From positions 12,958,001 to 13,022,000 of the forward strand of contig JBHGNT010000011.1 of assembly GCA_043228905.1 (NCBI GenBank): DNA of 64,000 bases, in the 5' to 3' direction. The notes below the pieces were generated by a model, which ran no database searches, was not told the DNA's origin, and saw only the letters and a program-made list of their open reading frames with translations. The position numbers were made by a program, and so were the translations under genes. Within the stretch, counting starts at the first letter, position 1. Every line of letters begins with the position of its first letter. This DNA comes from Azolla caroliniana. Taxonomy: Eukaryota; Plantae; Polypodiophyta. Positions 5,698-57,743 of this stretch are shown piece by piece.

Positions 5698-5707
5698 AAC
5701 TCCCCTT

Positions 5708-12720: not shown

Positions 12721-12741
12721 TGTTGAGCTTGTCTCTCAACA

Positions 12742-13609: not shown

Positions 13610-13639
13610 TTTCTGTGTCGTTTCGCTTTGATACCACTT

Positions 13640-21372: not shown

Positions 21373-21388
21373 TTTCTGTGTTAACCTC

Positions 21389-21400
21389 GCTCTGATACCA
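21389..21400 (-). promoter_or_regulatory. PBS (tRNA-iMet) of E
   Basis: Perfect TGGTATCAGAGC, 3 nt inside the 5' LTR boundary. Confidence 0.95.
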
Positions 21401-26104: not shown

Positions 26105-27734
26105 CCGGGCTAGAGACTTCGGTAGTCGACCCGAGAGCCGACGTAAGACCAAGAAACTGACGATGACGATGAGGGGACGAGGGCAAAGGCAGTAATGGGG
26201 TGGTCCTACGACAATCCTCTCACCGATCCGGAGACTTCGGCGGCCGGTCTGAGAGCCGGCGTGATACCTAGAGAGATAGACGGTGGCGGCAGGTGAACGG
26301 GATCCCAAGATACGGCGTAGAAGTGCGGATGGGTAATCCTACGATGATCCTCTCACCAATCCGGAGACTCCGGTGGTGGGCCCGAGACCTAGAGAGAAGG
26401 ATGGTGGAGGCAAGCGAACGGGATCTAGCAGAAGGGCCGAAAAGGAGCGGAAGGAGGTATCAGGTTGGTGACGTGGCCACGAACCGAATGCGGACCCAGT
26501 CGGCAGGGTCGATAGGATGAAGAAGGACGCGCGCATGTAACACAGGTCGGTTACGAATAAATTTTCAAAGACGGAGAAGGATCCACCACACTTGTACCGG
26601 AGACCCTCGGCAGCTCAGTCGGGGTGGCGATGACTGGCATGGCAAATGTAAGCCCGAGGTGATAAGCAGGTGGGTGCGAGGGGACGAAGCAACGATGTGC
26701 GATGACGACGAACCCAACCAACGCGACGCGAAGATCGACAAAGGCCAAGCGGGCCACTACGGGTGTCCCGCGGACGGAGGACACCGAGCATACGACAGGA
26801 CGCGGAGTGTACATACGGTTGATCAAGGGCCACGGGATGAGCACGTGTACGAGAGAAGATCGCGGCAAACGACCCGTCGACAGGTCGATCGAGCCTACGG
26901 GGAGGCGAGCGTGGGGATGGAACCAGAGCCGACGGTTCGAACCGGCGGAGGCCAACATGGTAGCTGGGATGCGGATTACGGAAGACCGACTGCTCACTAT
27001 GGTTCGAATCTCTCAGCCTTCTTCAGATTTGGCACGTACTGGTGGACATGCGGTTTGGTGGGGGCGGATGTCGTGAAGATTCATGGCCATAGTGAGAAAA
27101 CCGGGCCTATTGGGAATATCAGCGGGGTGCGGCGTGAGCACTCACCCTTGTATACTCGTGTAAGATAATGGGGTGCGTTTATGGTGCCGAATAGGACTTA
27201 AGTTAGGACAGAGAATCCCATGTAATAACGAATTTATCCCACATTGTAATGTCCCTCCCTCCTTGGGCTATAAAAGGAAGGGAGGGGTCTCTTGTCAGGG
27301 GTTGCCCATTTTAATTTAGGAAGGGTATACCACTTAGGTCTAGGGTTTGGTAGTTTTCTTGGCCTTCATCTTATTCTTATTTTCTTAGGGTTTGTACTTT
27401 GGTCTTTTCACCCTATTTCGTTTTAGGGTTTCATTTTAGTCTTCTTCATTGTCTCGTGGGTTTGGTTCATTCTTGGGAGTGGATGTTAGTATTCCGTTTA
27501 GGTTCTTCTTCTTGTGAGAGTTCGTGCGAGTTAGGGTTTATGAGGTTTAGGGTTTCAGGTGTTACTCTCTCTTCTTCATGTGAGAGTTTGGTTTGGTTTG
27601 GGGGTTCCTACAATGGCGGCTTTAGGAATTCTGGGGGCAGCACTTGGTGATTCAGCTTCCTCTCCTCGATGGAGAGCGTTTCGTATGGCGGTCGGTTCGT
27701 ATGGGGAGCGTTTCGTATGGGTGGAGTGACCCGG
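26105..27734 (+). mobile_element. Gypsy-related element F: 3' internal region, PPT and partial 3' LTR, probably non-autonomous
   Basis: GGTTTGGTGGGGGCGGA then TGTCGTGAAG at 27069, as in G and J; TATA near 27268; no recognisable intact pol. Confidence 0.7.
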
Positions 27735-28409
27735 TGTCGTGAAGAAAACCGTCCCTAGGCGGAAACTGGGTATAACGTGCGTAAACCGGCCCTTACACAT
27801 GGGCACAAGTTTTGTTGTATAGTACGTAGATAGGTACAGGACGGTTGAGGTGAAATCCTAGGTAGCATGCATTCATTAGGGAGAAAATCGAGGCGTATCC
27901 CTATCCGAAAGGACAGGGAATAAACATGATGTAACGGGTGGTAACGACCTCCCTCCTTGGGCTATAAAGAGAGGGAGAGGTATTGTAAAAAGGGGAATCG
28001 CGTTTTGTGGAGGACGAAGTGTTGTCGGACTGGAACCGAGTTCTTCTCCTTTGTCTTCTCCATAGTCGTTTTGTGCAGGTTTTCGGGAGGCTGACTGTAC
28101 TCCACGGAACGCCCGAGTGCTTCCGTCAGAGTCTCCATCTCGCATTCTATGCGTGTGTGTGTGTGTAGGCATAAAGCCTATCACTCGCCGGCTTGCCGGT
28201 TGTAACTCCTCGATTTATATATATACATATACATTCGTTCAGTCTCCATCGTTCGGAGTTGTTTGCAACTCCTGTGAATCTGTGTTTCTGCGCGTGTGTG
28301 GAGTACATCAGTAGTTTCCTTCCCCTCTTCTCATTTAGTCAATTCTCGGTCCAAGGCCCCTGTGGTCCCGCCTTGTTCTCCGCGCATGCACGTAACAGCG
28401 CGACATATT

Positions 28410-28427
28410 TGGTGAACCCGACGTGAA
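28410..28427 (+). promoter_or_regulatory. PBS (tRNA-Trp) of G
   Basis: TGGTGAACCCGACGTGAA, complementary to the plant tRNA-Trp 3' end as recalled. Confidence 0.85.
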
Positions 28428-30208
28428 CAGGCGGCAGAGGAATAGAAAGATGAGAGGGTCGGATCTTGCAGAAGCCGTGGCTTCGGCTATGGATCGGATA
28501 GTGAGTGCGTGCGAAGGCACAAGCGCCCTCGATAGGGCTATTGAAGTAGAAGTCGGCACGATAGGTTGGTTTGGTGGGAAGGATGCCACGAGGTATTTGG
28601 AGGCTTACCGAGCCGAAATGGTGATGAGGGACATCCCGGAGGATAGGGGACTGGCCGGATTCCCTCGGGTGGCGATGCCGGACATCCACGCGGAGGTGCT
28701 TGAGGTACGGGCTGAGAGTCAGACCTGGGAAGAGTTTGAAGGTCGGCTCCTTGAAAAATACGGGCTTGATGACGCGCTTCGGCTATTGAAGCAGGACTTC
28801 ATGGAATGGGTGGAGACCCCCGAAAAGGGGAGAAACGCGTCAGTGCTCCTTCGGGAGTTTGAAGAACGCTTTGCACGTCTTTTGGCACTGGACCGGACTG
28901 TACTGGACACAAGTCATGTCCTATTGTTCGTTAGATCGGTGGACGTAAGGAACCGGGAGCAAGTGGGCTTCCTGCTGGAGACCGATGATGACCTAACAAC
29001 CGACTGGGCCGTAGTAAAGAGAGTCTGCGGCTATTTCGACAAACGGCATGAGTGGGTCGATAAAGGCTTGACGGGGGCGGGTTCTGTTGCGACAAGGAAG
29101 GTCGAGGCACCCACACTGATGCGAAGGGAAGAGACCCGAGACTGGCTCGAGACCGGCTCGACTTCGACCAGCATGGTCAAAGGCTCGTCTGGAGGAGCGG
29201 CTCTAGAGGAGCTGACTCAGATGGTGAGGGACCTCCAGATTGCACAAGCACGGAGGGACGACGGTGAACAAGTTCGTGACCGAAGGCCTCCGGTTGGGAA
29301 CCAGTGCTTGTGGTGCGATGCAGTCGGCCACACCCGAAAGGACTGCGAGAACTTCGCCAAAGTGATAAGAGCTAACGTGGTGTACCTATGGAACGGTTGG
29401 GTGCACGCTAGCGAGATCCTAAGGGCCCTGGATCTGAATGTCGGACGAGGGGGTATGGAACAACTGATGGAAGAAGCGGCGGCTCGCCACGTAGAGACTG
29501 TCCACTACTCGGCGTTGGCTGGAGTTCAGGTTGGAAGTGATGAAGTCCGGAAGATGAAGGAAGTCGAATTCTGGCCATTGATGCTGGAAGGCCTCGCCGG
29601 TGTACGACTGAGGAAAGAGGAAGCGGACCGCGCGGTGTCGCGTTGCTACGCGCGTGTGTGGAGAACGAGGCGGGACCACTGGGGTCCTGGACCGAGGACT
29701 AGGTGAGAAAAGGGAGAGAGAGAGAGACGCTCACACACGTATAGACAAAGAAGCGCACGGGGACGCGGCCCAACAACATAGGAGACACGAGTTGAGAACA
29801 CTAGCGTATGTATATAAATATGTGTATGTATTTGTATGTATGCAGACGACTCGAACGGTTACAACCGATCAGGTCGGCGAGACGGATGCCGGTGCCTGAT
29901 CACCCACGCACACAGGGGAGCAAAATGGAGATTCTGCCAGAAGCACACGGGTGTTCCACGGAGCAGGATCAGCCTCCTGAGAACCTATGCAAAAGAAAGC
30001 TATGGATAACGACAGAGAAGAAGAGTTCAGTCGCAGTCCGACAGCACTTCGTCCCCCCTAGGCCCCCCCCCCCCCCCCCGTTTCCCTCTCTTTTATAGCC
30101 CAAGGAGGGAGGCCGTTTCACCCGTTTACATCACATTAATTCTCTGTCCTTTCGGACAGAGATACTCCTCGATTTCCCCTATAGAATATTGCTACCTAGG
30201 GTTTGACT

Positions 30209-33200
30209 CCGCCGAAACGATACCCCAGAGCTCGCGTTTAACCTGGGCGTATCCTCGTTGTCGCTCGCTGAGGACCTTCGCGCCGTACCGGATCAGGAAA
30301 CGCATGCCGTCCTCGTCCTCTTGGTTGACGACCCATCCGATCCCAGTTGGACTCGTGTCTATCGTTACGTAAATTGGAGTGTCCTTTCCGTACACAGCCT
30401 TTCGGAGCGCCGGAGCTGCGGCAAGTGCTTCCTTCATCTTTCGGACAGACTCCGTATGCTCGTCTCTCCACTCGAATTTTCGCCCCTTTTCAGCAACCCG
30501 TATAACGGCTCCACGACGTGAGCGTAATGCGGGATCCATATGTGGTAGAACGTGCACGCTCCCAAGAACCTCCGAACCTCCATGACCGAGCTATAGTCGT
30601 CCTTCATCGCGGAGATGGCTTCTACCTTAGCCGGAGACGGTTTCCGGCCGAACGACCCGCATAGGTGTCCGACGACCATGATCTCTGATTGCCCGAAGGC
30701 CGATTTCCCCCCGGAGAAGGTGAGCCTCGCGCCCTCCAACCTCTACAACACCTTCTCGCAGTCATCGATGTGCGTCGCCACGAATTTCCGGCACCCGTCC
30801 GGTCCGATCGTCTCGTCCTTTTCCTCCACCGGGCATCCCTTGATTGGGACGTTGTCCAGAAACGGCATGGTGATTTCCGGGATACAATCCCTCAGCACCT
30901 TGGTCATTGCGTTCACCATGTGAGCCACCGAGTTTGTCCCTCCTTGTGGATAGGGTACACATCCGTACTAGGCCGAGAGGAGTTCGCATTGTCGCGATGT
31001 CTCTGCTCTCTATGGCTAGCCGAGTAGAGATCACCGCATATGTCCCTCCTTATCGTACCCCGAGTAGAGATCACCGACCGAGTAAATCGACCTTCCGGCG
31101 AAGGCCTCCGCGAACTCGTTTATTGTCGGTCCGATTCCTGCGTTTCGAATGGTCACCTTGTTGACCGGCTGCAGGTCTTGAATAAAGCGCAGCGTGCCGT
31201 CCTTCTTCGGCACGGTAAACCACCGATTCGAGTATGGGGCACTCGATGGTTCGAGGATGCCCATCTTGACCTTCTGCTTTAACAGCTCCATCAGCTTCGG
31301 GATGTGAGCTCTGGGTACTGGAATTGGTTTGAGACTCCACGGCACATGCGGTACCATGAATATCACCATCGGTTCCACGACTGTCGGGTCTACGCACCCG
31401 ATCTCCTCTGGTGAGAATGCGAAAGCCTTCCCGTGCCTTCCGAGCATTCCCCGAAAACGGTCCTCTTCCGCCAGCAGTAGGAAGCCGCCCCCAACTATTT
31501 TGAGCTCACGTAGTGTTATGTCGGTGAACGTGTGTCCTATGCGGGCCGGATTTCGTAAACTCGGGTCCGACACAACCCCCTTTATTCGCAACTCGTTGCC
31601 CTCCGGCAAGGGAGCCGTGACTGGCCTCACCTTCCGGTCCACAGTCTTGTACCTCGTGTCCACCCGGGTCGTCCGATCCGACTCGAGCCCTCTACTAAAG
31701 TCCGCGATGACTTCGTACATCCTTTCCGAACATATCGGAATCGTCCGGTCCTCTTTAAGGTCTCCTCCGACTACCTCTCACAGCTCCCCCAAGGTATCGT
31801 CGAAAGAGACCGCCTCCATGGCTCCGTTGATTTCCTCTCGAAGGCCAAGGATACCACATGCCCGAAGTCGCTCCTCCGCCCTTTTCTTCTTCCGGCCAAC
31901 AACGTCGACTATCGTACACCCTCCGTTGTCGGAGAACCAAAATCTCCTACTTATAGTACAGGTCTTCTTCGCTATTGTACACTTGTGGGGTTTTCCCGGA
32001 GTGTCCGGACTATCGCGGCCCCATGCCTTGATAGCCCTCTCTAAAAATCCTCTCGGCTTTCGCCCCCGAGGGTCTCGCGGTTCCACTCATGGCTCGGTCT
32101 CACCGTCAAGAACTGGACCGAGTGACGCCCATCCTGGCTCTTGACCCTTGCATAGGCCGAGCCGTTGTCTAGCACCTTGGTCTCCATCCGTGCTGCCGTG
32201 ATGTACGGTTCTCCTAGTATAACCGGATGTGAGGACGTCTCCTGCACGAAGAAGTGCTGGTCAATCTCGACATCGCCGATCTTTACTCGTACATTCGGGT
32301 AGGCTCCATGCAATTCTTCGGTGGCACACGTCGTTGCTCGTATTTTCCACCCGTGCTTGGTGTTGATCGGCCATTTCCCCTTTTGTAGAAGTCCATGGAC
32401 ATCAAATTGATTTCTGAACCGTGGTCCACCAACGCCACCACTGGTTCATGAACATCTCCGATCTTCACGGGGGTCTCCGCGGTCGCTCTGGCCCAGTGCG
32501 GCCTCGAATAGTGGCTCTCCACCAACTCGTCTTCCAGCGCCATGTCCTCTATGTGCGTCATCCGCACCTCCACCGGCTTCTCCGGTTCTGTCTCCGTCGA
32601 CAGCCTCTTCCTCTTCACCAAGTCTACGATGGAGTCGTGGAACTCTTTCTTGGCGATCCCGAGCACTTCCCTCAGCGACAGTTCCACCTTGTTGTCGAGG
32701 ATTCATTCTTCCAGGACCTTTCGCAGGTTCGTGGATCTTTCGATTTTCGTGCCCAGCCGGTACCTGCCCCTCTTGGGATTATCCTGGGCGCCGGTTACGT
32801 CGGCCTCATTCCGCCATTCCCCGAATCGAGTTTCATATCGTTGCGAGGGCCCGGCCCCTCCGGTTTTCCCTACCCGCTTGTCCTCCACCAGAGCCTTGTA
32901 GTTTTGACAAGCGTCTTTGACGAAGGCTGTCTTTTCTTCCACCGGGTCAGTCCACCCAGTTACCTCCCGGACCCGTTTTTCCGCGCGGTCCGACTCTTCT
33001 TTCCTTAGTCGTGTGCCGGCGAGGCCTTCTAGCATCGTCGGCCAGAACCCGGCTTTGTTCGTCTTCGGGGCCTCGCCACTTCCGACCCAAATACCAGCTA
33101 ACGCCGAGTAGCGGACGGTCTCCGCGTGACAAGCCGCCGCCTCCTCCATTAGCCTTTTCATACCCCCTCGCCCGACGTTCAGGTTCAGGGCCCTTTGGGT

Positions 33201-34166
33201 CTCGCTGGCGTGCACTCGACCGTTCCACAGGTACACCACGTTGCTTCTCATCGCCTCGGCAAAGTCCCCGCAGTCCTTCCGGATGTGGCCAACCGCGTCA
33301 CACCACATGCACCTGTTTTCAGCTAGAGGTCGTCAGTCACGAGCCTGTTCGCCACTATCCCTCCGTGCCTGGGCGATCTGGAGATCCTTTACCATCCGCG
33401 TCAGTTCCTCCAGAGCTGCTCCCCCGGTCGAGCCCTTGACCATGCCGGTCGAAGCCAATCCGGTCTCGAGCCAACCTCGGGTCTCTTCCCTTCACGTTGG
33501 TGGTGTTGGCTCGAGCTTCCTTGCTGCGACAGAGCCCGCTCCTGTCAATCCTTTGTCAACCCATTCCCGCCGTTTGTCGAAACGGCCACAGACCCTCTTC
33601 ACCACGGCCCAGTCGGCCGTCAGCCCGTCATCAGTCTCCAACAGGAGGCCTACTTGCTCCCGATCCCGCTCGTCAACTGACTTAACAAACAATAGGACAC
33701 GACTTGTGTCTAGAATGGTCCGGTCAAGCACCGAGCAGCGCGCGAAGCGTTCCTCAAAGTCCCGGAGGAGCACCGACGCGTTCCTTCCTTTGTCGGGGGT
33801 CTCCACCCACTCCATGAAGTCCCGCTTCGAAAGTCGAAGCGCATCTTCAAGCCTGTATTTTTCGAGGAGCCGACCTTCGAACTCCTCCCAGGTCCGGCTC
33901 TCGGCGCGTACCTCGAGCACCTCCGTATGGATACCTGGCATCGCCACTCAAGGGAATCCGGCTAGACACCTCTCTTCCAGAATGTCCCTCATTACCATCT
34001 CAGCCCGGTAGGATGCCAAGTAGCTCGTGGCATCCTTCCCACTAAACCGGCTTATCGTACCGACAACCGCCTCGATAGCCCTATCAAGGGCGCCGGTGCC
34101 TTCGCGCGCACTCACTATACGGTCCACAGCCGAAGCCATGGCTTCTGCAAGGTCCGACCCCCTCAT
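30209..34166 (-). pseudogene. gag-pol: Gypsy H gag-PR and RT-RNase H remnants
   Basis: MRGSDLAEA, WCDAVGHIRKDC, DHGSEIN, DLYSGY, DTSPTGIG; several frameshifts. Confidence 0.88.
31983..32050 (-). promoter_or_regulatory. Putative -1 frameshift signal of H
   Basis: G GAT TTT TAG, GGGCTATC/GATAGTCC stem, TGGGG/CCCCA pairing; -1 frame open (ORF 31778-32086). Confidence 0.75.
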
Positions 34167-35776
34167 CTTCTACTCCTCTGCCGCCTGTTCACGTCGGGTT
34201 CACCAAATATGTCGCGTTGCTACGCGCGTGCGTGGAGAACGAGGCGGGACCACTGGGGTCCTGGACCGAGGACTAGGTGAGAAAAGGGAGAGAGAGAGAG
34301 ACGCTCACACACGTATAGACAAAGAAGTGCACGGGGACGCGGCCCAACAACACAGGAGACACGAGTTGAGAACACTAGCGTATATATATAAATATGTGTA
34401 TGTATTTGTATGTATGCAGACGACTCGAACGGTTACAACCGATCAGGTCAGCGAGACGGATGCCGGCGCCTGATCACCCACGCACACAGGAGAGCAAGAT
34501 GGAGATTCTGCCGGAAGCACACGGGCGTTCCACAGAGCAGGATCAACCTCTTGAGAACCTACGCAAAAGAAAGCTATGGAGAACAACGGAGAAGAAGAGC
34601 TCGGTCCCAGTCCGACAACACTTCGTCCCCCCTAGGCCCCCCCCCCCCCCCCCTTTCCCTCTCTTTTATAGCTCAAGGAGGGAGGCCGTTTCACTCGTTT
34701 ACATCACATTAATTCTCTGTCCTTTCGGACAGAGATACTCCTCGATTTCCCCTATAGAATATTGCTACCTAGGGTTTGACTTTTGTGCCTACCTATCTAC
34801 TATAACACAAGGGACGTGCCCACGTGTAAGGGCTGGTTCACACACGCTATACACGGTTTGCGCCTGGAGATGGTTTTCTTCACGACAGCGGGAAGACGAG
34901 TCCGAGAGGCAACTGGGTGGATTGACCTGGTCGAAGAGAAGACGGGCTTCGTTGAAGCCGCTTGCCAAAACTACGAAGAGAGAACAAGCGTGCAGGTAAG
35001 ACCGGAGGGGTCGGACCCTCACAACGGTATGAGACCCGGTTAGGGCAAAAGCAGAATGATGACGGTGTGACCAGCGCACCGGATAAAGCCAAGAGGGTCG
35101 GGTATTGATTGAGCACGAAGATCGAGAGGACTACGGACCTGCGAAAGGTCCTCGAGGAACATATCCTCGAACAGCAAAGTGGAGTTGTCACTGAGGGAAG
35201 TGCTCGGAATCGCCAAGGAGTTCCACGACTCCATCGTGGACTTGGTGAAGCGGAAAAGGCTTTCAACAGAGTTGGAGCCGGAGAAGCCGGTGGAGGTGCG
35301 AACGACGCACCTAGAAGACATGGCTCTAGAAGACGAGTTGGCGGAGAGCCACTATTCAAGGCCACATTGAGCCAGAGCAACCATGGAGACCCCCGTTAAG
35401 ATCGGAGATGTTTAGGAGCCGGTGGTGGCGTTGGTGGACCACGGTTCAGAAATCAACTTGATGTCCATGGACTTCTACAAGAAGGGGAAGTGGCCGATCA
35501 ACACCAAGCACGGGTGGAAAATACAAGCAACAACGCGCGCCACGGAAGAGCTGCATGGAGCCTGCCCGAATGTACGAGTGAAAATCGGTGATGTCGAGAT
35601 CGATCAACACTTGGGGAACCGTACATCACGGCGGCACGGATGGAGACAAAGGTGCTGAACAACGGTTCGGCATATGCACAAGTCAAGAGCTAGGATGGCC
35701 GTCACTCGGTCCAGTTCCTGACGGTGCGACTGAACCATGAGCGTAACCGCGAGACCCTCGGTGGTGAAAACCGAGA

Positions 35777-35842
35777 GGATTTTTAGAGAGGGCTATCAAG
35801 GCGTGGGGCCGCGATAGTCCGGACACCCCGGAAAAACCCCAC
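35777..35842 (+). promoter_or_regulatory. Putative -1 frameshift signal of G (slippery heptamer plus pseudoknot)
   Basis: GGATTTT 35777-83, TAG, stem 1 35790-97/35813-20, stem 2 35803-08/35837-42. Confidence 0.78.
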
Positions 35843-37033
35843 AGATGTACTATAGGCAAAAATACCTGTACCATAGGTAGGAAATTTTGGTTCCCCGATA
35901 GCGGAGGTTGTACGATAGCCGGCATAGTTGGCCGGGAAAAGAAGCGGGCGGAGGAGCGACTTCGGGCATGCGGAGTCCTCGACCCTGAAGAGGAAATCAA
36001 TGGAGCTGTGGAGGCGGTCTCTTTCGATGACACCTTGGGGAAATTACGGGAGGTGTTCAGAGAAGGCCTTAATGAGGACCGAACAATTCCGGTGTGTTCA
36101 GAAAGGATGTACGAAGTCATCGCCGACTTCGGTAATGGACTCGAGTCGGATCAGATGGCCCGAGTGGATACGAAGTACAAGACTGTGGACCGGAATGTGA
36201 GGCCGGTCGTGGCACCCTTGGCGGAGGGCAGCGAGTTACGGATAACGGGGGTCGCGTCGGACCCAAGTTTACGAGATCCGGCCAGCATAGGACAAATGTT
36301 CACCGACATAACATTGCGGAAGCTCAAGATTGGTGAGGGTGGCTTTCTACTGCCGGCGGAAGAGGACCGGTTTCGGAGAATACTCGGGAGGCACGGGAAG
36401 GCTTTCACATTCACGGTACCGCATGTGTCGTGGAATCTCAAACCGATTCCGGTACCCAGAGCTCACATCCCGAAGCTGATGGAGCTACTGAAACAGAAGG
36501 TGGAGATGGGCATCCTCGAACCGTCAAGTGCCCCATACTCGAATCAGTGGTTTACCGTGCCCAAGAAGAACGGCACGTTGCGCTTTATTCAAGACATGCA
36601 GCCAGTCAACAAGGTGACCATTTGGAACGCAGGAATCGGACCGACCATAGACGAGTTCGCGGAGGCCTTCGCCGGAAGGTCGATTTACTTAGTCGGTGAT
36701 CTGTACTCGGGGTACGATCAGTTCCAACTAGCCGTGGAGAGCAGGGACATTACGATGATGCAGACCCATGTCGGCCTAGTGCGGATGTGTACCCTCCCGC
36801 AAGGAGGGACAAACTCAGTGGCCCACATGGTGAACGCAATGAACAAAGTGCTGAGGGATTGTATCTCGGGCATCACCATGCCATTCTTAGACGACATCCC
36901 GATCAAAGGATGCCCGACGGGGAAGAGGATCAAAGCATTCAAAAAGCGGCACGAGGCTGAACCGGGCCCGGACGACCTAGATAGCGACACTAACCGCCTC
37001 GGAAAGGATGTCAATCCGGAAGACGAAGGATAA
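35777..37033 (+). pseudogene. pol: Gypsy G pol: RT N-half fused to the last integrase residues
   Basis: ...PFLDDIPIKGCP|TGKRIKAFKKR. Confidence 0.88.
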
Positions 37034-46129: not shown

Positions 46130-46177
46130 ATAGGGCTTTTACAGGTAGGGGTTGTGATAACATAAAAGAAAACCCCA
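46120..46177 (+). promoter_or_regulatory. Putative -1 frameshift signal of K
   Basis: G GAT TTT TAG; -1 frame open for 69 codons into ORF 46327; GGGGTT/AACCCC pairing. Confidence 0.75.
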
Positions 46178-49100
46178 TAAATAATAATGTAAATAAAGAT
46201 ATTCCTTGTACAATCTCATCTAATGGTGCTACTTTTATACTAAAAGTAAATAATAATAAAATACAAAATGCTTTCGAGTACTTTAAGTGTTTTGGATTAA
46301 TAGATGATGATGAAGAAATTCAGGATATGTTTGAAGAATTAAGTTTTGAAGATACAATAACTCATTTGGAAGCAATGGCAGAAGACAACGAAATCCAAGT
46401 TCCTGTCCATTCAATCAAGATGTACGAGGTCATTGAAGAAGTTGCTCGAAAGGATCATGAAGCACATGTACTAACAAAGTACAAGACAGTGGAGAAGAAG
46501 GTTCGTCCTATTGCTGCTCCACTTCCAGGGGATAGTGAAAAGGCAATCAAAGAAGTAGCCACAGAGCCAATGATCAGAGACCCACGAAAGGTAGGACATG
46601 TGTTTACTCCGGAAACAATACAAGGGATGAAAATAGGAGGGGGTGACTTCCTATTACCCGCTGAAGAAAAGCAGTTTAGGGAGATGTTAAAAAGGCATGG
46701 AAAGGCGTTCACATTCCAACCGAAGGAAATAGGGTGTGTGGATCCAGAAATTGTGGAGCCCATGGTTATATTCACTATCCCTCATATTCCATGGAACTTT
46801 AAGCCAATACCCATGCCTAGGGCTAGAATCCCTCAACTATTAGAACTTTTGAAAGAAAAGATAAGGATGGTTATCTTGGAACCATCGAACGCTCCTTACT
46901 CGAGTCGATGGTTCACTGTGTTAAAGAAAGATGGGCGACTCCGATTTATCCAAGATATGCAACCCGTGAATAAGGTAGCAATCCGAAACTCGGGAGTAGG
47001 GCCAATTGTGGATGAGTTTGCTGAGATGTTTGTAGGAAGAGCTATATATTCAATGGGAGACCTTTATCCCGGGTATGATCAATTTCAACTTGCTCTCAAA
47101 AGTCGAGATATAACTTCTATCAAGACACCTATAGGGTTAGTACGGATGTGCACCTTGCCGCAAGGAGCGACCAACTCAGTGGCGCATATGATGAATGGAA
47201 TGAACAAGGTACTTCGTGATTTTATTCCTCATATTACAATGCCTTTTCTAGATGATGTTCCAATTAAGGGATGCAAGGAGGAAGAGAAGAACGAGGAATT
47301 GGATGAAAGTGGTTGCCGTCAATTTGTTGCTGATCATATCAAGGATTGTGAGAAGGTGCTATCAAGGATGGAAGAAATGCATTTGAACTTATCAGGGGTG
47401 AAGTCAATATTTGGGGCAAAAGAGATCTTAATAGTTGGTCATATGTGTGGCCCGTACGGGAGAAAGCCATCCCCAGCCAAGGTCAATGCAATTCAAAATA
47501 TGCAAGAGGAATGTACATTCGTCTCAGAAGTACGAAGGTTTCTGGGGGTATGTGTTTTTTACTGTAAATGGATTTCGCATTATGCCCATTTATCTGAAAC
47601 TTTATATAGACTCCTAAGAAAAGGAGAGACATTTGAATGGAGTGAAGAGCATTCAAAGGCAATGAAGAGATTGAAGTACTGCTTAGCACAAGCTCCACCA
47701 TTAAAGCAACCTGACTACACCCGACCCATATATCTCACAGTAGACTCTAGTCCCATTGGAATTGGATGGGTGATAAGCCAACAAGATGGGGAAGAAATGT
47801 ATCCAGTCCGATTCAGAGCAAAGGTTCTTAGTGGTCGACAAAGAAAATATGCACAGGTGAAAAGAGAGCTATGGGGGATAGTAACAGCAGTAAAGACAGA
47901 CAGAGATTACTTAATTGGTGTTGAAGTAATAATAGAAACAGATTGTTTGCCTATTCTTGGTATCATAGCTAATTGTGATATTCCAAATCAAGCCATGTTA
48001 AGATGGTGTATCTATATTAGATCAGTCAACCCTGAAGTTCGACATATCTCTGGGAATAGAAATGCAGTAGCAGATATGTTATCAAGAGCAAGGTATGAGG
48101 AAGAGGAGATTCCAGACTCGGACGATGAGGAAAAAGAACAAACAGCCCTTACCACAAGCATTACCCGGGAAGGAGGAATGTAGTTTCTAGAAGAGGAGTA
48201 TGAAGAAGAATTCAAGGAAATAGGGAAATACCTACAAACCCCTGACAAGTACAAAGGTCGATCTAAAAAAGAGTTCACACAGTTTCGCAAGAAAGCCCAT
48301 AAGTTCTTCCTGCATGAAGGATATCTATGGCGACATCTGAAAACCAAGACTTGAAACCCGCAAAGAGTAATAGGTTCTGAAGGGCAAAGAAAGGAGATAA
48401 TCAGAGAGCTACATGACAAAGAATGGGCTGGTCATCGAGGAGTGTGGGCCACTTTCAGTAAGATTAAAGAACGATTTTGGTGGCCTCGATACTATGAGCA
48501 AATAAAAAAGTATGTGGAAACTTGTCCCACTTGTCAATATTATTCAAACGTAAAATTTTGTGATGAATTACACCCAACATACTCACCGAGGGTGCATTAC
48601 AAGTGGATGATAGATTTGGTAACAATGCCACTTGGAGTAGGACAAAATAGATACTTGGTTCTTGCTAGAGAAGATCTAACAAATCAAGTGGAAGGCCGTT
48701 CATTGCGAACAAAAGGGACATTAGGAGTATGTCAATTCATCTTGGAGGACATTGTTTGTAGATATGGATGTATCGGGAAGATAGTGGCAGATAGGGGAGA
48801 GCTCAATTTTGCGGAAGCTCAAGATTTTTTCGACAAAATAGGAATTTGGCTTTCTTTGACAACGGCGTACAATCCAGAAGCTAATGGAAAGGTAGAAAGG
48901 GGACATGGGCCAATAGTCAAAGCTTTGGCAAAGGCATGTAGAGGACGGGTCAGTGATTGGCAAAGGCATGCACTATGGGCTGATAGGACAACTCACAGCA
49001 CTGTTACTGGATTTATGCCTGCAGAATTAATCACAGGACAGAAGCCAATAATGTCAATTGAAGAAAAGATAACTACATGGGTTGTGTTGCCTTGGGAATC

Positions 49101-49569
49101 GGAAATGAGTAGGGAAGATTTACTTGCGGTTCGAATACGACAACTTCAATCAAGGACAGAAGACATAGAAAAAGCAGCTACTAGATTGAAAGAGGCAAGA
49201 ATCAAGAATAAGGACAGGTTTGACAAGATGAAAAGAATACAACCAAGAAAGGTGCAAGAGGGAGATTGGGTATTAGTATATGATAGTAGCCTAGATAATC
49301 AATACAGTACTATTCGGAAGTTTGCAAAAAGATGGTTTGGACCTTATGAAGTTAGGAAAATAACAGATAAAGCCACATATTTCCTCAATGAATTAGATGG
49401 GACAGAAATTCGTATCCCAATTGCAGGAAAAAGGATTAAAATATTTAAAAGGAGGGAGTCATTAGAGCCCGAATTTTATGAAGAAGTAGAAGAACTAAAA
49501 GAATCGGAAGAAGTGTTGGATGAACTCTGCACAACCAATGTGCAAGTTCAGAGGGGGTGGGTGTCGTGA
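46120..49569 (+). pseudogene. pol: Gypsy K pol (RT, RNase H, integrase), two in-frame stops, no chromodomain
   Basis: LPQGATNS, FLDDVPIKG, VDSSPIG, GHRG..CPTC, DRGE, WFGPY; stops at 48181 and about 48352. Confidence 0.92.
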
Positions 49570-50036
49570 AGAATGTGCTTCACGATATAAAAATGAGCTT
49601 AAATGTTGTATTTAATAATATTTGAAAGACTTGAACCCACATCCTTATATACGATGTACAATGTACATACCACTAGGCTAGGCTATTTATTTGTAAAAGT
49701 GTGTAATAAATGTGCTTCATGATATAAGAATGAAGCTATATTGTATTAAGTAAAATTGAGGGACTTGAAGCCTCAACCTTGTATACCAAGCACCAAGCCA
49801 TGCATTTTCATCATTATACTTATCCCATATCTATTTTCATACATAGCCATCATTCATCACATGCAATGCATGTGTGCCAAATGGCGATCATACATTACAT
49901 GTAACTCATGCATTGCATGCATGCCATACTCCCATACATTACCATATGCATGGCAACACTTATATAAAGAGGGGCAAGGAAAACAAGAAAGGAATCAAGA
50001 GAGAGTGAGAAAATAAAACAATCAAGTAGAGAAGAC

Positions 50037-50091
50037 TAGCTCATTGGGTGGAGAACCTCTCGTTTCGAAGTTGAGGTCGTGGGTTCAAATC
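50037..50091 (+). promoter_or_regulatory. tRNA-like Pol III A-box/B-box module in K LTR (second copy 43614-43666)
   Basis: TAGCTCATTGG and GGTTCAAATC at tRNA-like spacing. Confidence 0.55.
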
Positions 50092-50263
50092 AAGGGTCGG
50101 TATTGAAAAGATTCATCTTACGATCAAGGATTGTAAAGTTGGTAAAATTTTAAAATTTTAAATATACATCATGTTTATATCATATACTCTTGTTTCTAGA
50201 ATCATACTTTGTCTCAATCTTCTTTCTTGAATCATACATTGTCTCTATCTTTTATCTATGCTC

Positions 50264-50264
<1 letters not shown>

Positions 50265-50352
<88 letters not shown>

Positions 50353-50355
50353 ACA
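50265..50355. repeat. (TC)n(AC)n compound microsatellite in K 3' LTR
   Basis: Read directly. Confidence 0.95.
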
Positions 50356-50492
50356 TTACTCGTAACTCTTCGTCTTACTATCCTTAACCATTCTATCATC
50401 ACCATACAAGCCTTATTAAAAGTTAAGTTTCTTCAACTCCCCTTAACCTTAGTCCCTGCGACTTCGCCGCACGAACCACAACTACCCCGACA

Positions 50493-53238
50493 ACGGGTAC
50501 CCTCGACAAAGCCATTGAATCGATCGTCGGCACTATAGGCCGGTTCGGAGGGAAAGACGCCACAAGTTATTTGGAGGCTTACCGGGCCGAAATGATCATG
50601 AGGGATATCCCGGTGGACAGGCGGTTGTCCAGATTCCCTCGGGTGGTGATGTCGGGCATCCACGCGGAGGTGCTCGAGGTGTTGGCCAGATGCCAGACTT
50701 GGGAGGAGTTCGAGCTACAGCTCCTCGAGAAGTACGGGTTTGACGACTCGCTTCAGCTGTCGAGGAGGGACTTCATGGCGTGGGTGGAAAGCCCCGGAAA
50801 AGGGAGGAACACGTCCTTGCTCCTCCAGGAGTTCGAAAAGCGGTTCACGCAGCTGTCAATGCTGGACTGGACGGTGCTTGAAACGAGTCGAGTACTACTG
50901 TTTGTCAAGTCAGTGGACACGCTCGACAGGGAAAGGGTGGGTCCCTTATTGGAAATGGACGAAGGGCTCATGGCAGACTAGGCCGTGGTAAAACGGGCCT
51001 GCAACCGTTTCGACAAACGGCACGATTGGAGCAACGGAAGCTCGTCGGGGTCAGGGCCGGTCCCGGCGGGGAGGCTCGAGGAGCCGATATCGGTGCAAGC
51101 TGGCAGGAAGGAAGAGACCCGAAATTGGCTAGAGGCCCATCCGGAGGAGCGGCTCTGGAGGAGCTAACACAAATGGTGCGTGACCTGCAGATCGCACAGG
51201 CACGAAGAGACAGCGGCGAACAACCCCGCGACCGAAGGCCGCCAGCTAGGCAGCGGTGCATGTGGTGTGACGCGATTGGTCACATTCGGAAGGATTGCGC
51301 GGATTTCGCCGACACGCTCAAGTCCAACGTGGTGTACCTTTGGAACGAGCGGGTGCATGCGAGCGAGACCCGGAGAGCCCTAGAACTAAATACGGGGCGC
51401 GGCGGAATTAAGAGGCTAATGGAAGAGGCCGCAGCACAGCATGTAGAAGTCGTTAACTACACAGTGTCGGCAGGAATTCGGGTCGGGGGTGATGAGTCCC
51501 GGAAGGTGAAGGACTCCGGATTCTGGCCACTAGTGCTCGAAGGCTTCTCCGGAGTTCGGCTGAAGAAGGAAGAGGCAGACCACGCGGAACAGTGGGTCCA
51601 GGAGGTCACCGGATGGGACGATCAGGTCGAAGAGAAAATAGGCTTCGTAGAAGCCACTTGCCAGAACTACGAGGTTCTGGTGGAAGACAAACGAGTAGGA
51701 AAGGCCGGGGGGATGGGTTCCCCGCAGAGGTACGAGACCCGGTTCAGACCGAAACCGACCGGTGCCAGCAACCCAGGCGCGCCGGACGGAAAGAAGCAGA
51801 CAGGGTTTAGGTTGAGCACTGAAATCGAGAGAGCAACGGACCTATGGAAGGTCCTTGAAGAGCGGATCCTCAACAGTAAAGTGGAGTTGTCGTTGCGGGA
51901 GGTGCTGGGAATCGCCAAGAGGGAGTTCCATGACTCCATCGTAGACTTGGTGAAGCGGAAGAGGCTCTCCATGGAGCCAGAACCGGAGAAGCCGGTGGAG
52001 GTGCGGACTACGCACTTAGAGGACGCGGCCCTAGAAGACGAGTTGGAGGAAAGCCACTACGCGAAGCCGCATTGGGCCAGGGCAACTACGGAAACCCCTG
52101 TGTGGATCGGCGACGTTCCGGAACCAGTGGTGGCCTTGGTAGACCATGGATCCGAAATCAACCTGATGTCCATGGATTTCTGACAGGAATGCACGCTCCC
52201 TTTTCCACAACACTCGGCCACAACTGAGTCTAAAATCGAACACAGAAAACGGATAATGAACGCACGACACAAAGGAGAGAAGAGTACACAGGATGTTTAA
52301 CGTGGAAAACCTTGAGAGGGAAAAACCACGGGAGTCCACAGACTCCAAACTATCACTATATCACAATGATTACAATAGTGAGCTCACAAAGGCAATGACC
52401 TCCTGCTCACGATCTTCGCCAAAGGCGGCGGTTACAACAGAGGCAATGACCTCTTCCTCTCTCTCTCTCTCTCTCTCTGTACACTTTTACGCGCTCTCTA
52501 GTCTTGCATCAACAAGAATGACAACATACATACAAATTTTGCCCTAAGTCATATTTATACTAATATGACTTTTCGGCTATTTACAAATATAGCCCCGATG
52601 AACTCTCAGAAACATATTTACGAATATGTCCCTTTATCCGGCGAGCACTCCTCACCGGGCTTGCATCATCTGGTGCTTGCCGGGCACACGACATCCGGTT
52701 CTCACCAGGTCTTCACCATCCGGCTCTTGCTGGGTACTCGTCATCCGGTTCTCACCGGGTCCTCCGTAGTCGGGTACTCGTCATCCGGTTCTCACCGGGT
52801 CTTCCATTGCCGGGTACTCCACATCTGGTTTGGTCATCAGTATTTTTCTTCTCACTTCCCATCCGGAGGGACTTGTTTCCTAACAATTTCTACAAGAAGG
52901 GTAAATGGCCGATCAACACCAAGCACGGGTGGAAGATACGCGCAGTGACGCGTGCTACGGAGGAGATGCACGGTGCGTACCCAAATATACGCGTAAAGGT
53001 CGGTGACGTCGAGATAGATCAACATTTCTTCGTGCAGGAAACATCCTCGCACCCGCTAATTCTTGGAGAACCATACATTACGACAGCACGCATGGAGACG
53101 AAAGTGTTCGACAACGGTTCGGTGTACGCGCGCGTCAAGAGCCAAGACGGTCAGCATTCCGTCCAATTCATGACCGTACGTCCGAACCATGAGAGGAATC
53201 ACGAGACCCTCAGCGCCGGGAGCCGAGGGGATTTTTAG
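50493..53238 (+). pseudogene. gag: Gypsy J gag-protease (starts 43062, split by K and L)
   Basis: CMWCDAIGHIRKDC, ALVDHGSEIN, ends GDF*. Confidence 0.88.
52181..52885 (-). mobile_element. Solo LTR L (B family), perfect TSD ATTTC
   Basis: ATTTC at 52176-52180 and 52886-52890; TGACAGG...CCTAACA. Confidence 0.93.
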
Positions 53239-53294
53239 AGAGGGTTATCAAGGCGTGGGGCTGCGGTAGTCCGGACGTACCGGAAGAACCCCAC
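53229..53294 (+). promoter_or_regulatory. Putative -1 frameshift signal of J
   Basis: G GAT TTT TAG; stem GGGTTATC/GGTAGTCC; GTGGGG/CCCCAC; -1 frame open for 70 codons into ORF 53439. Confidence 0.75.
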
Positions 53295-56200
53295 ACATGT
53301 ACAGTAGGTAGGAAGTTTTGGTTCTCCAAAAATGGAGGTTGTACTATAACCGGCGTCAGCGACCGAGAGAGGAAGCGAGCGGAGGAGCAGCTCAGGGGAT
53401 GCAGAGTCCTCTCCCTCGACGAAGAAATCAGCGGCACCGTGGAGGCGGTCTCTTTTGACGACACCTTGGGCAAGTTGCAAAAGGTGATCGGGGAAGACCT
53501 TAGAGAAGACCGGACCATTCCGGTTAGTTCAATGGGAATGTACGAAGTCATCGCGGACTTCGGGGAAAGGATTCGGTCGGATCGGACGGCCCACGTGGAT
53601 ACAAAGTACAAGATTGTGGACCGGAAGGTGAGGCCAGTCGCGGCACCCTTGCCAGAGGGCAGCGAGGAGTGGATAAAAGGGCTCGCGTCGGACCCAAGTT
53701 TACGGAATCCGGCTGGCATAGGGCACCGGTTCACCGACATAACGCTACAAGAGATCAAGGTTGGTGAGGGTGGCTTTCTACTGCCGGCGGAGGAGGACAG
53801 GTTCCGTAGAATGCTGGGAAGGCATGGGAAAGCCTTCGCGTTCTCGCCAGAGGAGATCGAGTGCGTGGACCCGACGATCATCGAACCGATGGTGATCTTC
53901 ACGGTACCGCATGTACCGTGGAATCTCAAACCGATTCCGGTGCCGAGAGCTCACATCCCGAAGTTGATGGAGCTTCTGAAGCAAAAGGTGGAGATGGGCA
54001 TCCTCGAACCGTCGAGTGCCCCGTATTCGAATCGGTGGTTTACGGTGCCGAAGAAGAACGGCACGTTGCGCTTCATTCAGGACCTGCAACCGGTCAACAG
54101 GGTGACCATCCGTAATGCAGCAATCGGACCGACCATAGACGAGTTTGCGGAGGCCTTCGCTGGAAGGTCGATTTATTCGGTCGGTGACTTATACTCAGGG
54201 TACAACCTGTTCTAGTTAGCCGTGGAGAGCAGGGATATCACGACGATGCGAACCCCTCTCGGCCTGGTACGAATGTGTACCCTACGACAAGGCGGGACAA
54301 ATTCGGTAGCGCATATGGTGAACACAATGAACAAGGTACTCAGGGACTGCATCCCGGACATCACCATGTCATTCTTGGACGACATCCCGATAAAGGGGTG
54401 TCCGATGGATGACGCGGATGAGACTGTCAGGCCAGACGGATGCCGGAGGTTCGTCGTGAACCACATCAACGACTATGAGAAGGTGTTGTAGAGGCTCGAA
54501 AAGGCACGACTCACCTTCTCCGGAGAAAAATCGGCGTTCAGACAATCGGCGATCTTGGTGGTTGGACACCTGTGCGGGCCTTACGGTAGAAACCGTCTCT
54601 GAAAAAGGTAGAGGACATCTCCGCGATGAGGGACGATTGTGGGTTGGTCACGGAGGTCCGCAGATTCTTGGGAGCGTGCGTGTTCTACCACATCTAGATT
54701 CCGCACTACGCGCATGTTGCAGAGCCTCTCTACAGGCTATTGAAGAAAGGGCGTGGGTTCGAGTGGAGGACGGAGCACACGGAGTTGGTCCGGAGACTAA
54801 AGGAGGTGCTTACGGTAGCGTCGGCCCTCCGTAAAGCGGTTTACAGCAAGGGTGTCCCCATTTGCGTGACGGTGGACACGAGCCCGACCAGGATCGGGTG
54901 GGTAATTCGTCAGGGGGACAAGGACGGCGTACGATTCCCAATCCGGTTCGGGGCAAAGGTATTAAGCGAGCGGCGGCGAGGATACGCCCACGTTAAGGGC
55001 GAGCTTTAGGGTATCGTTTCGGCAATCAAGGCCAACAAGGACTATCTGATCGGGACGGAGGTGACCATCAAGACGGATTGCCTGCCGATACTCGGCATGG
55101 TTTCCGGATGCGCGACGCCGGACTTAGCAATGCTCCGGTGGATAGCGTACATTAAGTCCCTGAACCCGGAGATACGGCACATCTCCGGAAAGGACAACGC
55201 CATGGCCGACATGCTTTCGAGAGCGAGGTTCAACGACGAAGACGACATGGTTTCGGATGACGAAGAAGTCGGCGAGGACTTCTTCGGGTCGGCTAACGTA
55301 ACAGCGAGGAAAAGGGACACTCCGGCGCTTAACGAATTTGACGAAAGTAGGTACAACAGGAAGTGGCTCCAAATCGGGAGGTTCCTACGGACGATGACGC
55401 CGGACGTAGCATGGACGAGAGAAGAGGCGAGCCGGGTACGGAAGAAGGCGTACCGATTCTTCCTGTGGGACGAGCGCATATGGAGGCACCCAAAGAAGAG
55501 AAACGGCATCCTGCTCCGAGTAGTGGCAAAGAAAGAAGAACAAGAGGAACTACTGGCAGCATTTCACGAGAGTTCTTGGGCCAGGCACCGCGGAACGTGG
55601 GCCACATTCGAAAAGCTGAAGGAGAAGTACTAGTGGTCGGGGTTGTACCAGGACGTGCATCGGTTCGTAATGACTTGTGAAAATTGTCAAATGCACTCCG
55701 TAGTCCGACATCGGGACGAGCTACACCCAACTTACCCGCCTGCGGTTCATTTCAAGTGGATGGTGGACTTGGTGACGATGTCGATGGGAGTAGGACAGAT
55801 GCGATACTTGGTGCTTGCGCGGGAAGACTTAACGAACCAGGTGGAAGGGCATGCACTGCAGAACAAGACAACCGCGGCGGTATGCCGGTTCTTGATCGAA
55901 GAGGTAGTGTGTCGGTACGGGTGCGTCAAGAGGATTGTCGCACCCGGGGAGAGCTGGATGCGCGCGAAGCTGAGGAGCTGTTCGACCAGCTGGGCGTCAA
56001 ACTCTCCCTCACTACGGCGTACAATCCGGAGGCGAACAGGAAGGTAGAACGTGGGCGCGGGCCGATCGTAAAGGCGTTGGTGGGTGCATGCGGAGGGCAG
56101 GCCAGGAATTGGCCGCGGCGCCTTCCTTACGCGCTATGGGCAGACCAAACTACACACAATTCGGTGACAAGGTTTATGTCGGCTGAGCTGATGTACGGAC

Positions 56201-56734
56201 AGAAGCCGATCATGCCGGTGGAATGGACGGTTTCTTCATGGGCGGCGGTAGATTGGAAGGACGAGATGAGCTAGGAGGAGTTGCTGGAGGCCGGAGGACA
56301 TAAAAAGGGCGAAGGAAAAGCTGTGGGTAGCAAGGGAGCAGAACAAGACCCGGTTCAACCGGACACACCGGTTGCGACCAAAGAAGATCGAGGAAGGTGA
56401 CTGGGTCTTGGTGTACGACAACAGCGTTGACAATCAGCACAAGGCGGTGCGAAAGTTTGCTAGGAGGTGGTTCGGGCCCTACACGGTGACGAGCGCGAAC
56501 GACAATGGCACGTACCACCTCGCGGAACTCGACGGGACACGACTAGCAGTGCCGGTTGCCGGGAAGCGGACCAAAGTGTTCAAGAAGCGGTACGAAGACG
56601 AGTCGTGGCCTGCGAGCGGGGGTGACAACGACACTCGAATCGGAGACCGACGAGTGAAGCCGGTTTTCTTCGGTATCTATTCGTCTCTGGCGCATGCCGG
56701 TGGATGCGCGGTTTGGTGGGGGTGGATGTCGTGA
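53229..56734 (+). pseudogene. pol: Gypsy J pol, decayed
   Basis: FLDDIPIKG, DTSPTRIG, REDLTNQVEG, WFGPY; several TAG stops. Confidence 0.9.
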
Positions 56735-57296
56735 AGAAAACCGGCCATAGGCAGAATCGGATGAAAAGGCGCATGAACCGGCTCTTACACGGATGGACGC
56801 GTGAATTGATATTTTGATAAGGATTCATAAATGGATCGGCTGATGTAAATACTAAGTAGTACACAGTTATTAGGGGGATTGTGCGTATCTCTATTAGAAG
56901 GGACAGGAAATAAAGTGATTTGACTAGGGAAAAAGGGGCACCCCCTTTTGGGAACTATTTAAGGAGAGGAGAGAAGGAAGAGAGGAGATCGCGCGTTGGG
57001 GAGGAGGAAGTGTTGCTGCAGAACTGAGTGTCGAGCTCTCTCTTCTCCTCTGATCGTCGGTCTTTGTGGGGTCGGGAGTTCGTTGCCTCTGATTCGTGGA
57101 CAGCCCGTGCGCTTCTAGCAGAGGCTCTCCCCTTTTTGTTTCTTTGAGTCGGGTGGGTTCCGTCTGTGTGCGTGAGTAGGGTCCCCCCGTGTTGGGCCCA
57201 TCGCCGGCTTGCCAGTTGTAACCGTCGGAGTTTGTAATCTCTTGTTATTGTAATTAAGTGTTCCGTTATTTATCTCTCCTTCTTGCTTCTGCATGT

Positions 57297-57346
<50 letters not shown>

Positions 57347-57743
57347 GATTCAAGGCCCCCGTGGTCCTGCCCTTCTACACGCACACGCGTAACAACGCAA
57401 CATCAGAATACCAAAACCCAATTGACGACATTCTTGTTCTGGAACATGATACTGATCTTCTCCCCGAGTTCATTAGTCTTGCTCTCTTCATTGAAGTTGT
57501 TGTACATGCTCATGTCGATGAAGCATCAGATATATGTCGTAGTCTTCATGTGCATCACCTCCCACACTGTGGCATCGATCTTATCCGGTCTCTTGTCCCC
57601 GAACTGAACTGGCAACCAAAGATCTTTAACCACTAGCATATCATTCATCTTCGACCTCTACACAAAGTAGTTGGAGCCAGTGAGCTTGAACATGCCGGTG
57701 AACGATTCTTCCATTTCTTGTGTTGTTCGCTCTGATACTAGAT

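What the first reader, a model, noticed from the sequence alone, without database searches (positions are those of the whole stretch)
26105..57406. Gypsy integration gives 4-bp TSDs centred on CpG (NCGG)
Seen flanks: H GCGG/GCGG (29632, 34888), K ACGG/ACGG (43133, 50493), J CCGG/TCAG (42348, 57403; the host gag homologue has one CCGG, so TCAG reads as a deaminated copy), G CCGG (27731) and CCGG (37790), D CCGG (26105). Rebuilding the H, J and K targets needs removal of exactly 4 bp, whereas copia TSDs here are 5 bp with no shared motif. One exception: Q left flank is ACAG. The J and K integrases end soon after GPY with no chromodomain. Inference: the integrase prefers CG or mCG sites, which are scarce in the AT-rich host DNA and dense in these GC-rich TEs, giving a chromodomain-independent way to nest inside other TEs. 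The sample is small and the targets are CG-rich anyway.
Basis: partly seen in the sequence, partly recalled or inferred. Interest (0 to 1): 0.75.

Follow-up and report, generated by a model that had tools for sequence, protein, structure and literature searches.

The report
Phygy-type retrotransposons that insert at CG
These nested plant jumping genes insert at four-base sites with a CG pair in the middle far more often than chance, which is real but already published for the moss "Phygy" lineage that they most likely belong to; whether they sense DNA methylation is untested.

Summary
Real, but published. H, K and J have 4-bp duplications on a CG, confirmed against uninterrupted homologues; four copia insertions have 5-bp duplications without central CG. 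In 44 metagenome contigs carrying the same LTR start, 26 of 29 left and 11 of 12 right junctions have a central CG, the other four TG/CA (expected 1.1 and 0.5), also in CG-poor DNA (9 of 10). The motif is not NCGG (4 of 26) but VCGB, ACGT commonest. Neumann et al. 2019 list exactly this for Phygy: non-chromovirus Ty3/gypsy, 4-bp NCGN duplication, tRNA-Trp primer. These elements share the primer-site type (Trp by recall), lack of chromodomain and a gag with Physcomitrium homologues; no tree with REXdb references was possible. G's two CCGG flanks belong to different hosts, so G is no verified duplication. Likely mechanism: the foamy-virus-type VYRB rule of 4-bp integrases narrowed to CG. Methyl-CG sensing is untested; nesting is a likely by-product. 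The scan noted an NCGN preference before in another (fungal-type) genome (e1-10582392, unchecked).

The parts
29632..29635 (.). H target-site duplication, left copy GCGG (CCGC on the element's strand)
29636..34887 (-). Gypsy element H in the gag of G; 5' LTR 34210-34887, primer site 34205-34188, 3' LTR 29636-~30208 (shortened); LTRs 96.0% identical
34888..34891 (.). H duplication, right copy GCGG
43133..43136 (.). K duplication, left copy ACGG
43137..50492 (+). Gypsy element K (AT-rich family, 7356 bp) in the gag of J; 5' LTR cut at ~43666 with the primer site lost, 3' LTR 49562-50492; shared LTR part 99.4% identical
46108..48183 (+). K reverse transcriptase / RNase H frame
48355..49569 (+). 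K integrase frame: H2C2, DDE core with DRGE motif, SH3-like domain with WFGPY, disordered acidic tail, no chromodomain
50493..50496 (.). K duplication, right copy ACGG
42348..42351 (.). J duplication, left copy CCGG
42352..57402 (+). Gypsy element J in a copia gag; 5' LTR 42352-43017, 3' LTR 56727-57402 (94.4%); holds K and a solo copia LTR
57403..57406 (.). J duplication, right copy TCAG (two transitions from CCGG; deamination inferred)
27731..27734 (.). CCGG left of G, at the end of another gypsy 3' LTR (27069-27730); half-site
27735..37789 (+). Gypsy element G; 5' LTR 27735-28405, primer site 28410-28427, 3' LTR 37108-37789 (92.7%); internally deleted; flanks from two different hosts
37790..37793 (.). 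CCGG right of G, inside a copia LTR piece; half-site
25450..26104 (-). 5' LTR of gypsy element D (primer site 25445-25428; body runs left to 14312, 3' end lost)
26105..26108 (.). CCGG half-site of D
63410..63413 (.). ACAG half-site of element Q (LTR end at 63414); the uninterrupted homologue has GCAG at 8974-8977
16626..22091 (-). Control: copia element with 5-bp duplication AGTAG
8892..12741 (-). Control: copia element with 5-bp duplication AGCAT
52181..52885 (-). Control: solo copia LTR with 5-bp duplication ATTTC
40816..41640 (-). Control: solo copia LTR with 5-bp duplication CTTTA/CTTCA

Best explanation
These are non-chromovirus Ty3/gypsy retrotransposons, most likely of the Phygy lineage of non-seed plants, whose insertions carry 4-base duplications of the form VCGB (central CG, ACGT commonest), and their integrase likely picks such sites by reading the DNA sequence itself. 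Shown: 4-bp length, central CG, avoidance of T first and A last, no chromodomain. Inferred by analogy with the foamy-virus intasome: a 4-bp staggered cut needs a sharp kink at a central pyrimidine-purine step and disfavours T/A at the edges (VYRB); this lineage has narrowed YR to CG, probably by base contacts from the integrase. Because CG is about five times denser in the GC-rich elements than in the AT-rich DNA of the window, insertions would drift towards older elements as a by-product.
For: Window: 4-nt overlap against homologues for H, K, J; 6 of 7 sites CG, expected 0.44. Outside: 26 of 29 left and 11 of 12 right junctions CG, the other 4 TG/CA, none of another kind; expected 1.12 and 0.47 from each site's own flank. 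CG sits at -3/-2 on the left and +2/+3 on the right, which fixes the length at 4. CG-poor flanks: 9 of 10, expected 0.15; T first 0 of 26 against 39% background, A last 1 of 26 against 39%, ACGT 10 of 26 against 5.7%. Neumann 2019: Phygy, 186 elements, 4 bp (100%) NCGN, tRNA-Trp 81%, no extra domain. Primer site identical in G, H, D and in 5 metagenome loci, the exact complement of an abundant CCA-ended plant small RNA. DUF4100 gag with named homologues in Physcomitrium patens, Riccia and Adiantum; RT/RH clade with Riccia elements, far from chromodomain-bearing rows; no chromodomain in the 30 closest long relatives. PFV consensus VYRB, T at 0 and A at +3 disfavoured in 4-bp integrators; PFV and Ty3 integrases are the best sequence and fold matches. 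CG frequency 6.3% in 4-64 kb against 1.25% in 1-4 kb.
Against: No REXdb Phygy sequence could be placed in the tree (supplement too large), so lineage rests on features; TatI also has 4-bp duplications and tRNA-Trp, though it carries an extra RNase H not seen here. Of 7 outside loci with both flanks, only 3 show a matching 4-mer (all ACGT) and 4 do not, likely short-read chimeras or recombinants. The outside loci come from unnamed hosts and are 67-95% like the window's LTRs, mostly G/H-type. Junctions are survivors of selection and assembly, not fresh insertions. Elements here are shorter (K 7.4 kb, J 7.0 kb without inserts) than the published Phygy range of 7.7-10 kb, though deleted. No residue is shown to read the CG.
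Confidence: 0.8

Rival explanations
1. The integrase prefers methylated CG, using the host's silencing mark as a landing signal in place of a chromodomain, and so nests in heterochromatic TEs.
For: CGs in these elements decay as if methylated: 19 of 37, 11 of 21 and 12 of 30 transitions between LTR pairs are at CG. Mean flank CG density (1.12/29, about 3.9%) is three times that of the window's AT-rich part. Phygy inserted into Tcn1 is the commonest repeated nested pair in Physcomitrella (PMC6911290 passage) and Phygy domains are enriched at centromeres of Apopellia (PMC12885004 passage).
Against: No methylation data. A plain CG preference predicts the same tilt. 10 of 29 sites are in CG-poor DNA. 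The edge preference does not follow methylation as proxied by CG decay (0.384 in TCG/CGA contexts, 0.388 in others, window). CG-centred targeting exists for ZAM (CGCGCg, direct binding) in Drosophila, whose CG methylation is negligible (recalled).
Confidence: 0.15
2. The CG centre is a by-product of inserting into GC-rich TE DNA by chromatin targeting, or chance in a small sample.
For: All window targets lie in CG-rich TEs (13-26 CG per 300 nt).
Against: P=4e-36 and 1e-15 against each site's own flank; 9 of 10 in CG-poor flanks; four copia duplications in the same DNA lack central CG.
Confidence: 0.01
3. A separate, unnamed non-chromovirus lineage (or TatI relative) that reached NCGN targeting independently of Phygy.
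For: No Phygy reference in my tree; closest named pol hits are Riccia and Ceratopteris, not Physcomitrium.
Against: Same duplication length, motif, primer type and domain set as Phygy; gag homologues in Physcomitrium patens at E 1e-72 to 1e-87; no RVT_3-type extra RNase H among 36 frames scanned or the 30 closest long relatives.
Confidence: 0.08

Closest known systems
Phygy lineage (non-chromovirus Ty3/gypsy; Neumann et al. 2019, PMC6317226; abstract, passages, sections 8 and 22 and supplementary file 5 read)
   Same: 4-bp duplication with NCGN motif, tRNA-Trp-type primer site, no chromodomain or extra RNase H, short elements, non-seed plant host; gag homologues in Physcomitrium.
   Different: Defined there from Physcomitrella only; here other families in another host, some GC-rich. 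The motif resolves to VCGB with ACGT commonest, a refinement I did not find in the passages read (additional file 1 with the TSD list could not be read).
Prototype foamy virus intasome and other 4-bp integrators (Serrao et al. 2015, PMC4422553; passages)
   Same: 4-bp stagger, central pyrimidine-purine step, T first and A last disfavoured (VYRB); best PDB matches of the K integrase.
   Different: PFV takes any YR step weakly; here CG is near-obligate. The residue aligned with PFV Ala188 is Glu/Asp (51 of 52).
Ginger1 DNA transposons (Bao et al. 2010, PMC2836005; passages)
   Same: Gypsy-type integrase with GPY/F, TGT termini, 4-bp duplications CCGG (75%) or CCGT/ACGG (24%).
   Different: Animal DNA transposons with terminal inverted repeats; CCGG-dominated, whereas ACGT leads here; kinship of the integrases not tested.
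ZAM of Drosophila (PMC2527525; passages)
   Same: Gypsy-type element with a CG-centred palindromic target that its integrase binds directly.
   Different: Errantivirus-like element, longer CGCGCg site plus a second binding site; no preference beyond 4 bases seen here in 29 sites.

Membership tests
Phygy | Clusters with Phygy in RT-RH-INT trees | tested here: inconclusive
   No REXdb reference available. K and D fall in a supported clade with Riccia elements (26 rows, SH-aLRT 97, quick tree, 69 of 74 rows), apart from chromodomain rows; gag has Physcomitrium homologues.
Phygy | 4-bp target-site duplication | tested here: met
Phygy | NCGN motif | tested here: met
   37 of 41 outside half-sites CG, 4 TG/CA; 6 of 7 window sites
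Phygy | Primer site for tRNA-Trp | tested here: inconclusive
   Conserved 18-nt site after a 4-nt spacer, complement of a CCA-ended plant small RNA; the assignment to Trp is recalled, ARAGORN found no matching tRNA gene.
Phygy | No chromodomain, no extra RNase H | tested here: met
Phygy | Length 7.7-10 kb, coding region filling the interior | tested here: inconclusive
   K 7356 bp with about 400 bp of its 5' LTR missing, J 6981 bp without inserts, G and H deleted
Chromoviruses (Tcn1, Tekay, Reina, CRM, Galadriel) | Chromodomain at the integrase C-terminus | tested here: not met
   chromodomain rows distant
TatI (4-bp TSD, tRNA-Trp) | Additional archaeal-type RNase H domain | tested here: not met
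   No such Pfam hit in 36 frames or the 30 closest long relatives; frames are partly broken, so this is a modest test
Selgy (4-bp TSD) | tRNA-Ala primer site, about 5 kb, no TSD motif | tested here: not met
   Strong CG motif where Neumann 2019 reports one only for Phygy; primer identity by recall
Ginger1 | DNA transposon with terminal inverted repeats and no reverse transcriptase | tested here: not met
   Direct LTRs, primer site, RT and RNase H present

The most novel reading that the evidence does not exclude
The Phygy-type integrase reads 5-methyl-CG directly, a chromodomain-free way to aim at silenced DNA, and this CG-reading is an old trait shared with its fungal and charophyte sister elements (the DUF4100-gag group), with the conserved acidic residue at the PFV Ala188 position and the conserved loop before WFGPY as candidate readers.
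Probability: 0.12. Interest if true: 0.75.

Novelty: new member of a known kind. Interest (0 to 1): 0.27.

Why it matters
As it stands it extends a one-line published observation (Phygy, NCGN) to other families in another non-seed plant and sharpens the motif to VCGB, which ties it to the known geometry of 4-bp integrases. It offers a near-obligate CG-specific LTR integrase for a simple biochemical test. Only if that test showed methyl-CG sensing would it be a new targeting mechanism for retrotransposons.

Tried and rejected
No whole genome is held for the window, so no genome-wide logo. NCGG as the motif: rejected (4 of 26, background 24%). G as a paired duplication: rejected. Context-dependent methylation as the cause of the T/A edge avoidance: no difference in CG decay in 53 window alignments (0.384 vs 0.388); 482 alignments among the loci gave 0.283 vs 0.339 but reuse the same LTR positions many times. 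Laying four sequencing runs on the G LTR gave only pooled loose ends, no single junctions; small-share runs not used. Viral contigs held no relatives, so the duplications of the fungal-type sister elements could not be tested. A tRNA gene matching the primer site was not found. A tRNA-like look of part of the K LTR got no Rfam support. 'DUF4100' gave no paper. Searches for print on the motif: 'NCGN'+'retrotransposon' (only Neumann 2019 relevant), 'Phygy' (18 listings), 'Phygy'+'insertion preference'; none of the listings or passages seen reports a test of methyl-CG preference, but subscription journals are not searched. PMC7466625 and PMC6839031 (passages) added nothing on the motif. No longer palindrome or preference outside the 4 bases was visible in 29 sites.
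Full report
Setting. The window is AT-rich and CG-poor in its first 4 kb (CG observed/expected 0.3-0.5) and from there on a pile of nested LTR retrotransposons with CG near expectation. Pfam shows copia and gypsy polyproteins; the gypsy gags carry DUF4100. The closest named relatives of the K integrase and RT are Riccia and Ceratopteris proteins, those of the D gag include Physcomitrium patens, Riccia and Adiantum: a non-seed land plant by inference. No whole genome is held.

Observation in the window. All nine 4-mers quoted are present beside TG...CA LTR ends. H and K have exact duplications at 4 bases only; J has CCGG/TCAG. I aligned left and right flanks separately to uninterrupted homologues: overlap 4 for H in 3 of 4 homologues (one did not align), for K in 2 of 4 (two distant gags gave 6 with ragged ends), for J in 1 of 3 (two did not align), the J homologue reading CCGG. 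TCAG is two transitions away from CCGG, as deamination of methylated CCG would give (inference). G's flanks both read CCGG, but the left lies at the end of another gypsy LTR and the right inside a copia LTR piece, and they share no homology; G is therefore two half-sites, not a proven duplication. D is one half-site. Q, at 63414 and outside the stated range, has ACAG where the homologue has GCAG. Counting H, K, J, both G flanks, D and Q, 6 of 7 have a central CG against 0.44 expected from their own 300-nt flanks, P=4e-7. Of six copia flank pairs checked, three are exact 5-bp duplications (AGTAG, ATTTC, AGCAT), one has one mismatch (CTTTA/CTTCA) and two do not match; none of the four has a central CG. 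The J and K integrases end after an SH3-like domain with WFGPY and a short tail; Pfam finds no chromodomain at E up to 10 and the K model has a low-confidence tail from residue 369.

A larger sample. A degenerate pattern made only of LTR-internal bases found 44 metagenome loci, 67-95% like the window's LTRs, mostly of G/H type. Twelve are 3' LTR starts behind a polypurine tract; 32 have a foreign left flank, of which 3 were duplicates. Of the 29 left junctions 26 have a central CG and 3 TG or CA, against 1.12 CG expected (P=4e-36). An LTR end was located in 18 loci: 6 lead into the primer site, 12 into a flank, of which 11 have CG and 1 CA, against 0.47 expected. CG lies at -3/-2 on the left and +2/+3 on the right, which gives a length of 4 on its own. 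In the 10 left flanks with at most 7 CG per 300 nt, 9 are CG and one ATGG, expected 0.15, so background does not explain it. Two further LTR starts in these loci also have NCGN flanks. Against this: of 7 loci with a flank on both sides only 3 match (all ACGT); 4 do not, as expected if short-read contigs join different copies through the LTR, but this set does not prove duplication by itself. Hosts are unnamed and may be other species.

The motif. Only 4 of 26 CG-centred left sites end in G (background 24%), so NCGG is an accident of the small window sample and of strand. T first occurs in 0 of 26 (background 39%, P=3e-6), A last in 1 of 26 (39%, P=5e-5), ACGT in 10 of 26 (5.7%, P=8e-7). The motif is the palindromic VCGB. 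No preference outside the four bases is visible. Eight of 29 left and 2 of 12 right flanks match TEs of this window; several others are AT-rich. Mean flank CG density is about 3.9%, between the window's TE pile (6.3%) and its AT-rich part (1.25%).

What is known. Neumann et al. [quoted passage not shown] Jedlicka et al. 2019 (PMC6911290; passages and section 8) report 4-bp duplications as commonest in Phygy, GC-rich centres in 4-bp duplications, and Phygy-in-Tcn1 nesting. The elements here have one conserved 18-nt primer site after a 4-nt spacer that is the exact complement of a CCA-ended plant small RNA (PMC5846777 passage); that it is tRNA-Trp is recalled. In a quick RT/RH tree (69 of 74 rows; five short hits dropped) K and D group with Riccia elements; fungal and Chara elements are the next branches and chromodomain-bearing rows are distant. 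None of the 30 closest long relatives lists a chromodomain. No REXdb sequence could be included, so membership is likely, not proven.

Mechanism. Serrao et al. 2015 (PMC4422553 passages) give the foamy-virus duplication as VYRB, with a kinked central pyrimidine-purine step, and find T first and A last disfavoured in all 4-bp integrators. VCGB is that rule with YR narrowed to CG. PFV and Ty3 integrases are the best sequence and fold matches of the K integrase. I infer that the edge rule comes from shared intasome geometry and the CG from added base contacts. Candidates, untested: the acidic residue after the second catalytic aspartate (E or D in 51 of 52 homologues), which aligns with PFV Ala188 although that residue contacts bases outside the duplication, and the conserved loop before WFGPY (Q316 in 49 of 50), which by position may correspond to the PFV Arg329 loop (inference; not aligned by the tools). 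Direct CG-centred reading has precedent in ZAM and Ginger1. Methylation: CG decay between LTR pairs indicates that these elements are methylated, but decay is the same in avoided and preferred contexts within the window, and nothing here tells whether the target was methylated when hit. A plain CG preference already tilts insertions towards CG-rich old elements.

Earlier notes. One unreviewed note reports NCGN duplications in a fungal-type genome (e1-10582392) and pointed me to Ginger1; I could not test whether those elements are the sister group seen. Notes on this genome concern other gypsy traits.

Verdict. Observation largely confirmed and strengthened, motif corrected to VCGB, phenomenon already described for Phygy. 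New member of a known kind; interest 0.27. The open, testable part is methyl-CG sensing (about 0.12-0.15).

Noticed in passing
window 27069-27734 and 37790-37893: G sits between the end of a gypsy 3' LTR of typical length (662 bp) that lacks a terminal CA and a 100-bp stump of a copia LTR; either recombination between two G-family copies at different CCGG sites or G landing on the other element's own duplication with a small deletion.
   Followed up: partly
window 43137-43700: K's 5' LTR lacks its last 400 bp and the primer site although the shared part is 99.4% identical to the 3' LTR: a recent deletion in a young, AT-rich family member.
   Followed up: partly
window 50035-50092 and 43613-43666: Inside the K LTR a stretch resembles RNA polymerase III A and B boxes of a tRNA, and the 5' LTR breaks just after it; ARAGORN and Rfam gave no support.
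   Followed up: partly
window 28406-28409, 43018-43021; L002, L008, L009, L022, L026: The primer site is separated from the LTR by a 4-nt spacer (TATT, TAAT or TCTT), longer than the usual 0-3 nt (recalled).
   Followed up: no
window 24053-25373: Tandem duplication of about 660 bp within the gag of D (91% identical).
   Followed up: no
window 4876-14311: A copia element whose two outer flanks (CGTAC, TGTAG) lie in different hosts, a copia gag and the D integrase; likely a recombinant that removed D's 3' end.
   Followed up: partly
window 5415-5678, 11973-12247, 41271-41556, 60271-60500: Copia LTRs carry variable arrays of a 54-bp (or 26-bp) CCGG-rich unit, a dense supply of potential CG targets.
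   Followed up: no
window 57750-59620: Copia LTR with an internal 370-bp duplication that serves as 5' LTR of one element and 3' LTR of a short neighbour.
   Followed up: no
L008 (1230 nt around the match): An LTR with a polypurine tract before it and a primer site after it: tandem elements sharing one LTR, or an assembly collapse.
   Followed up: no
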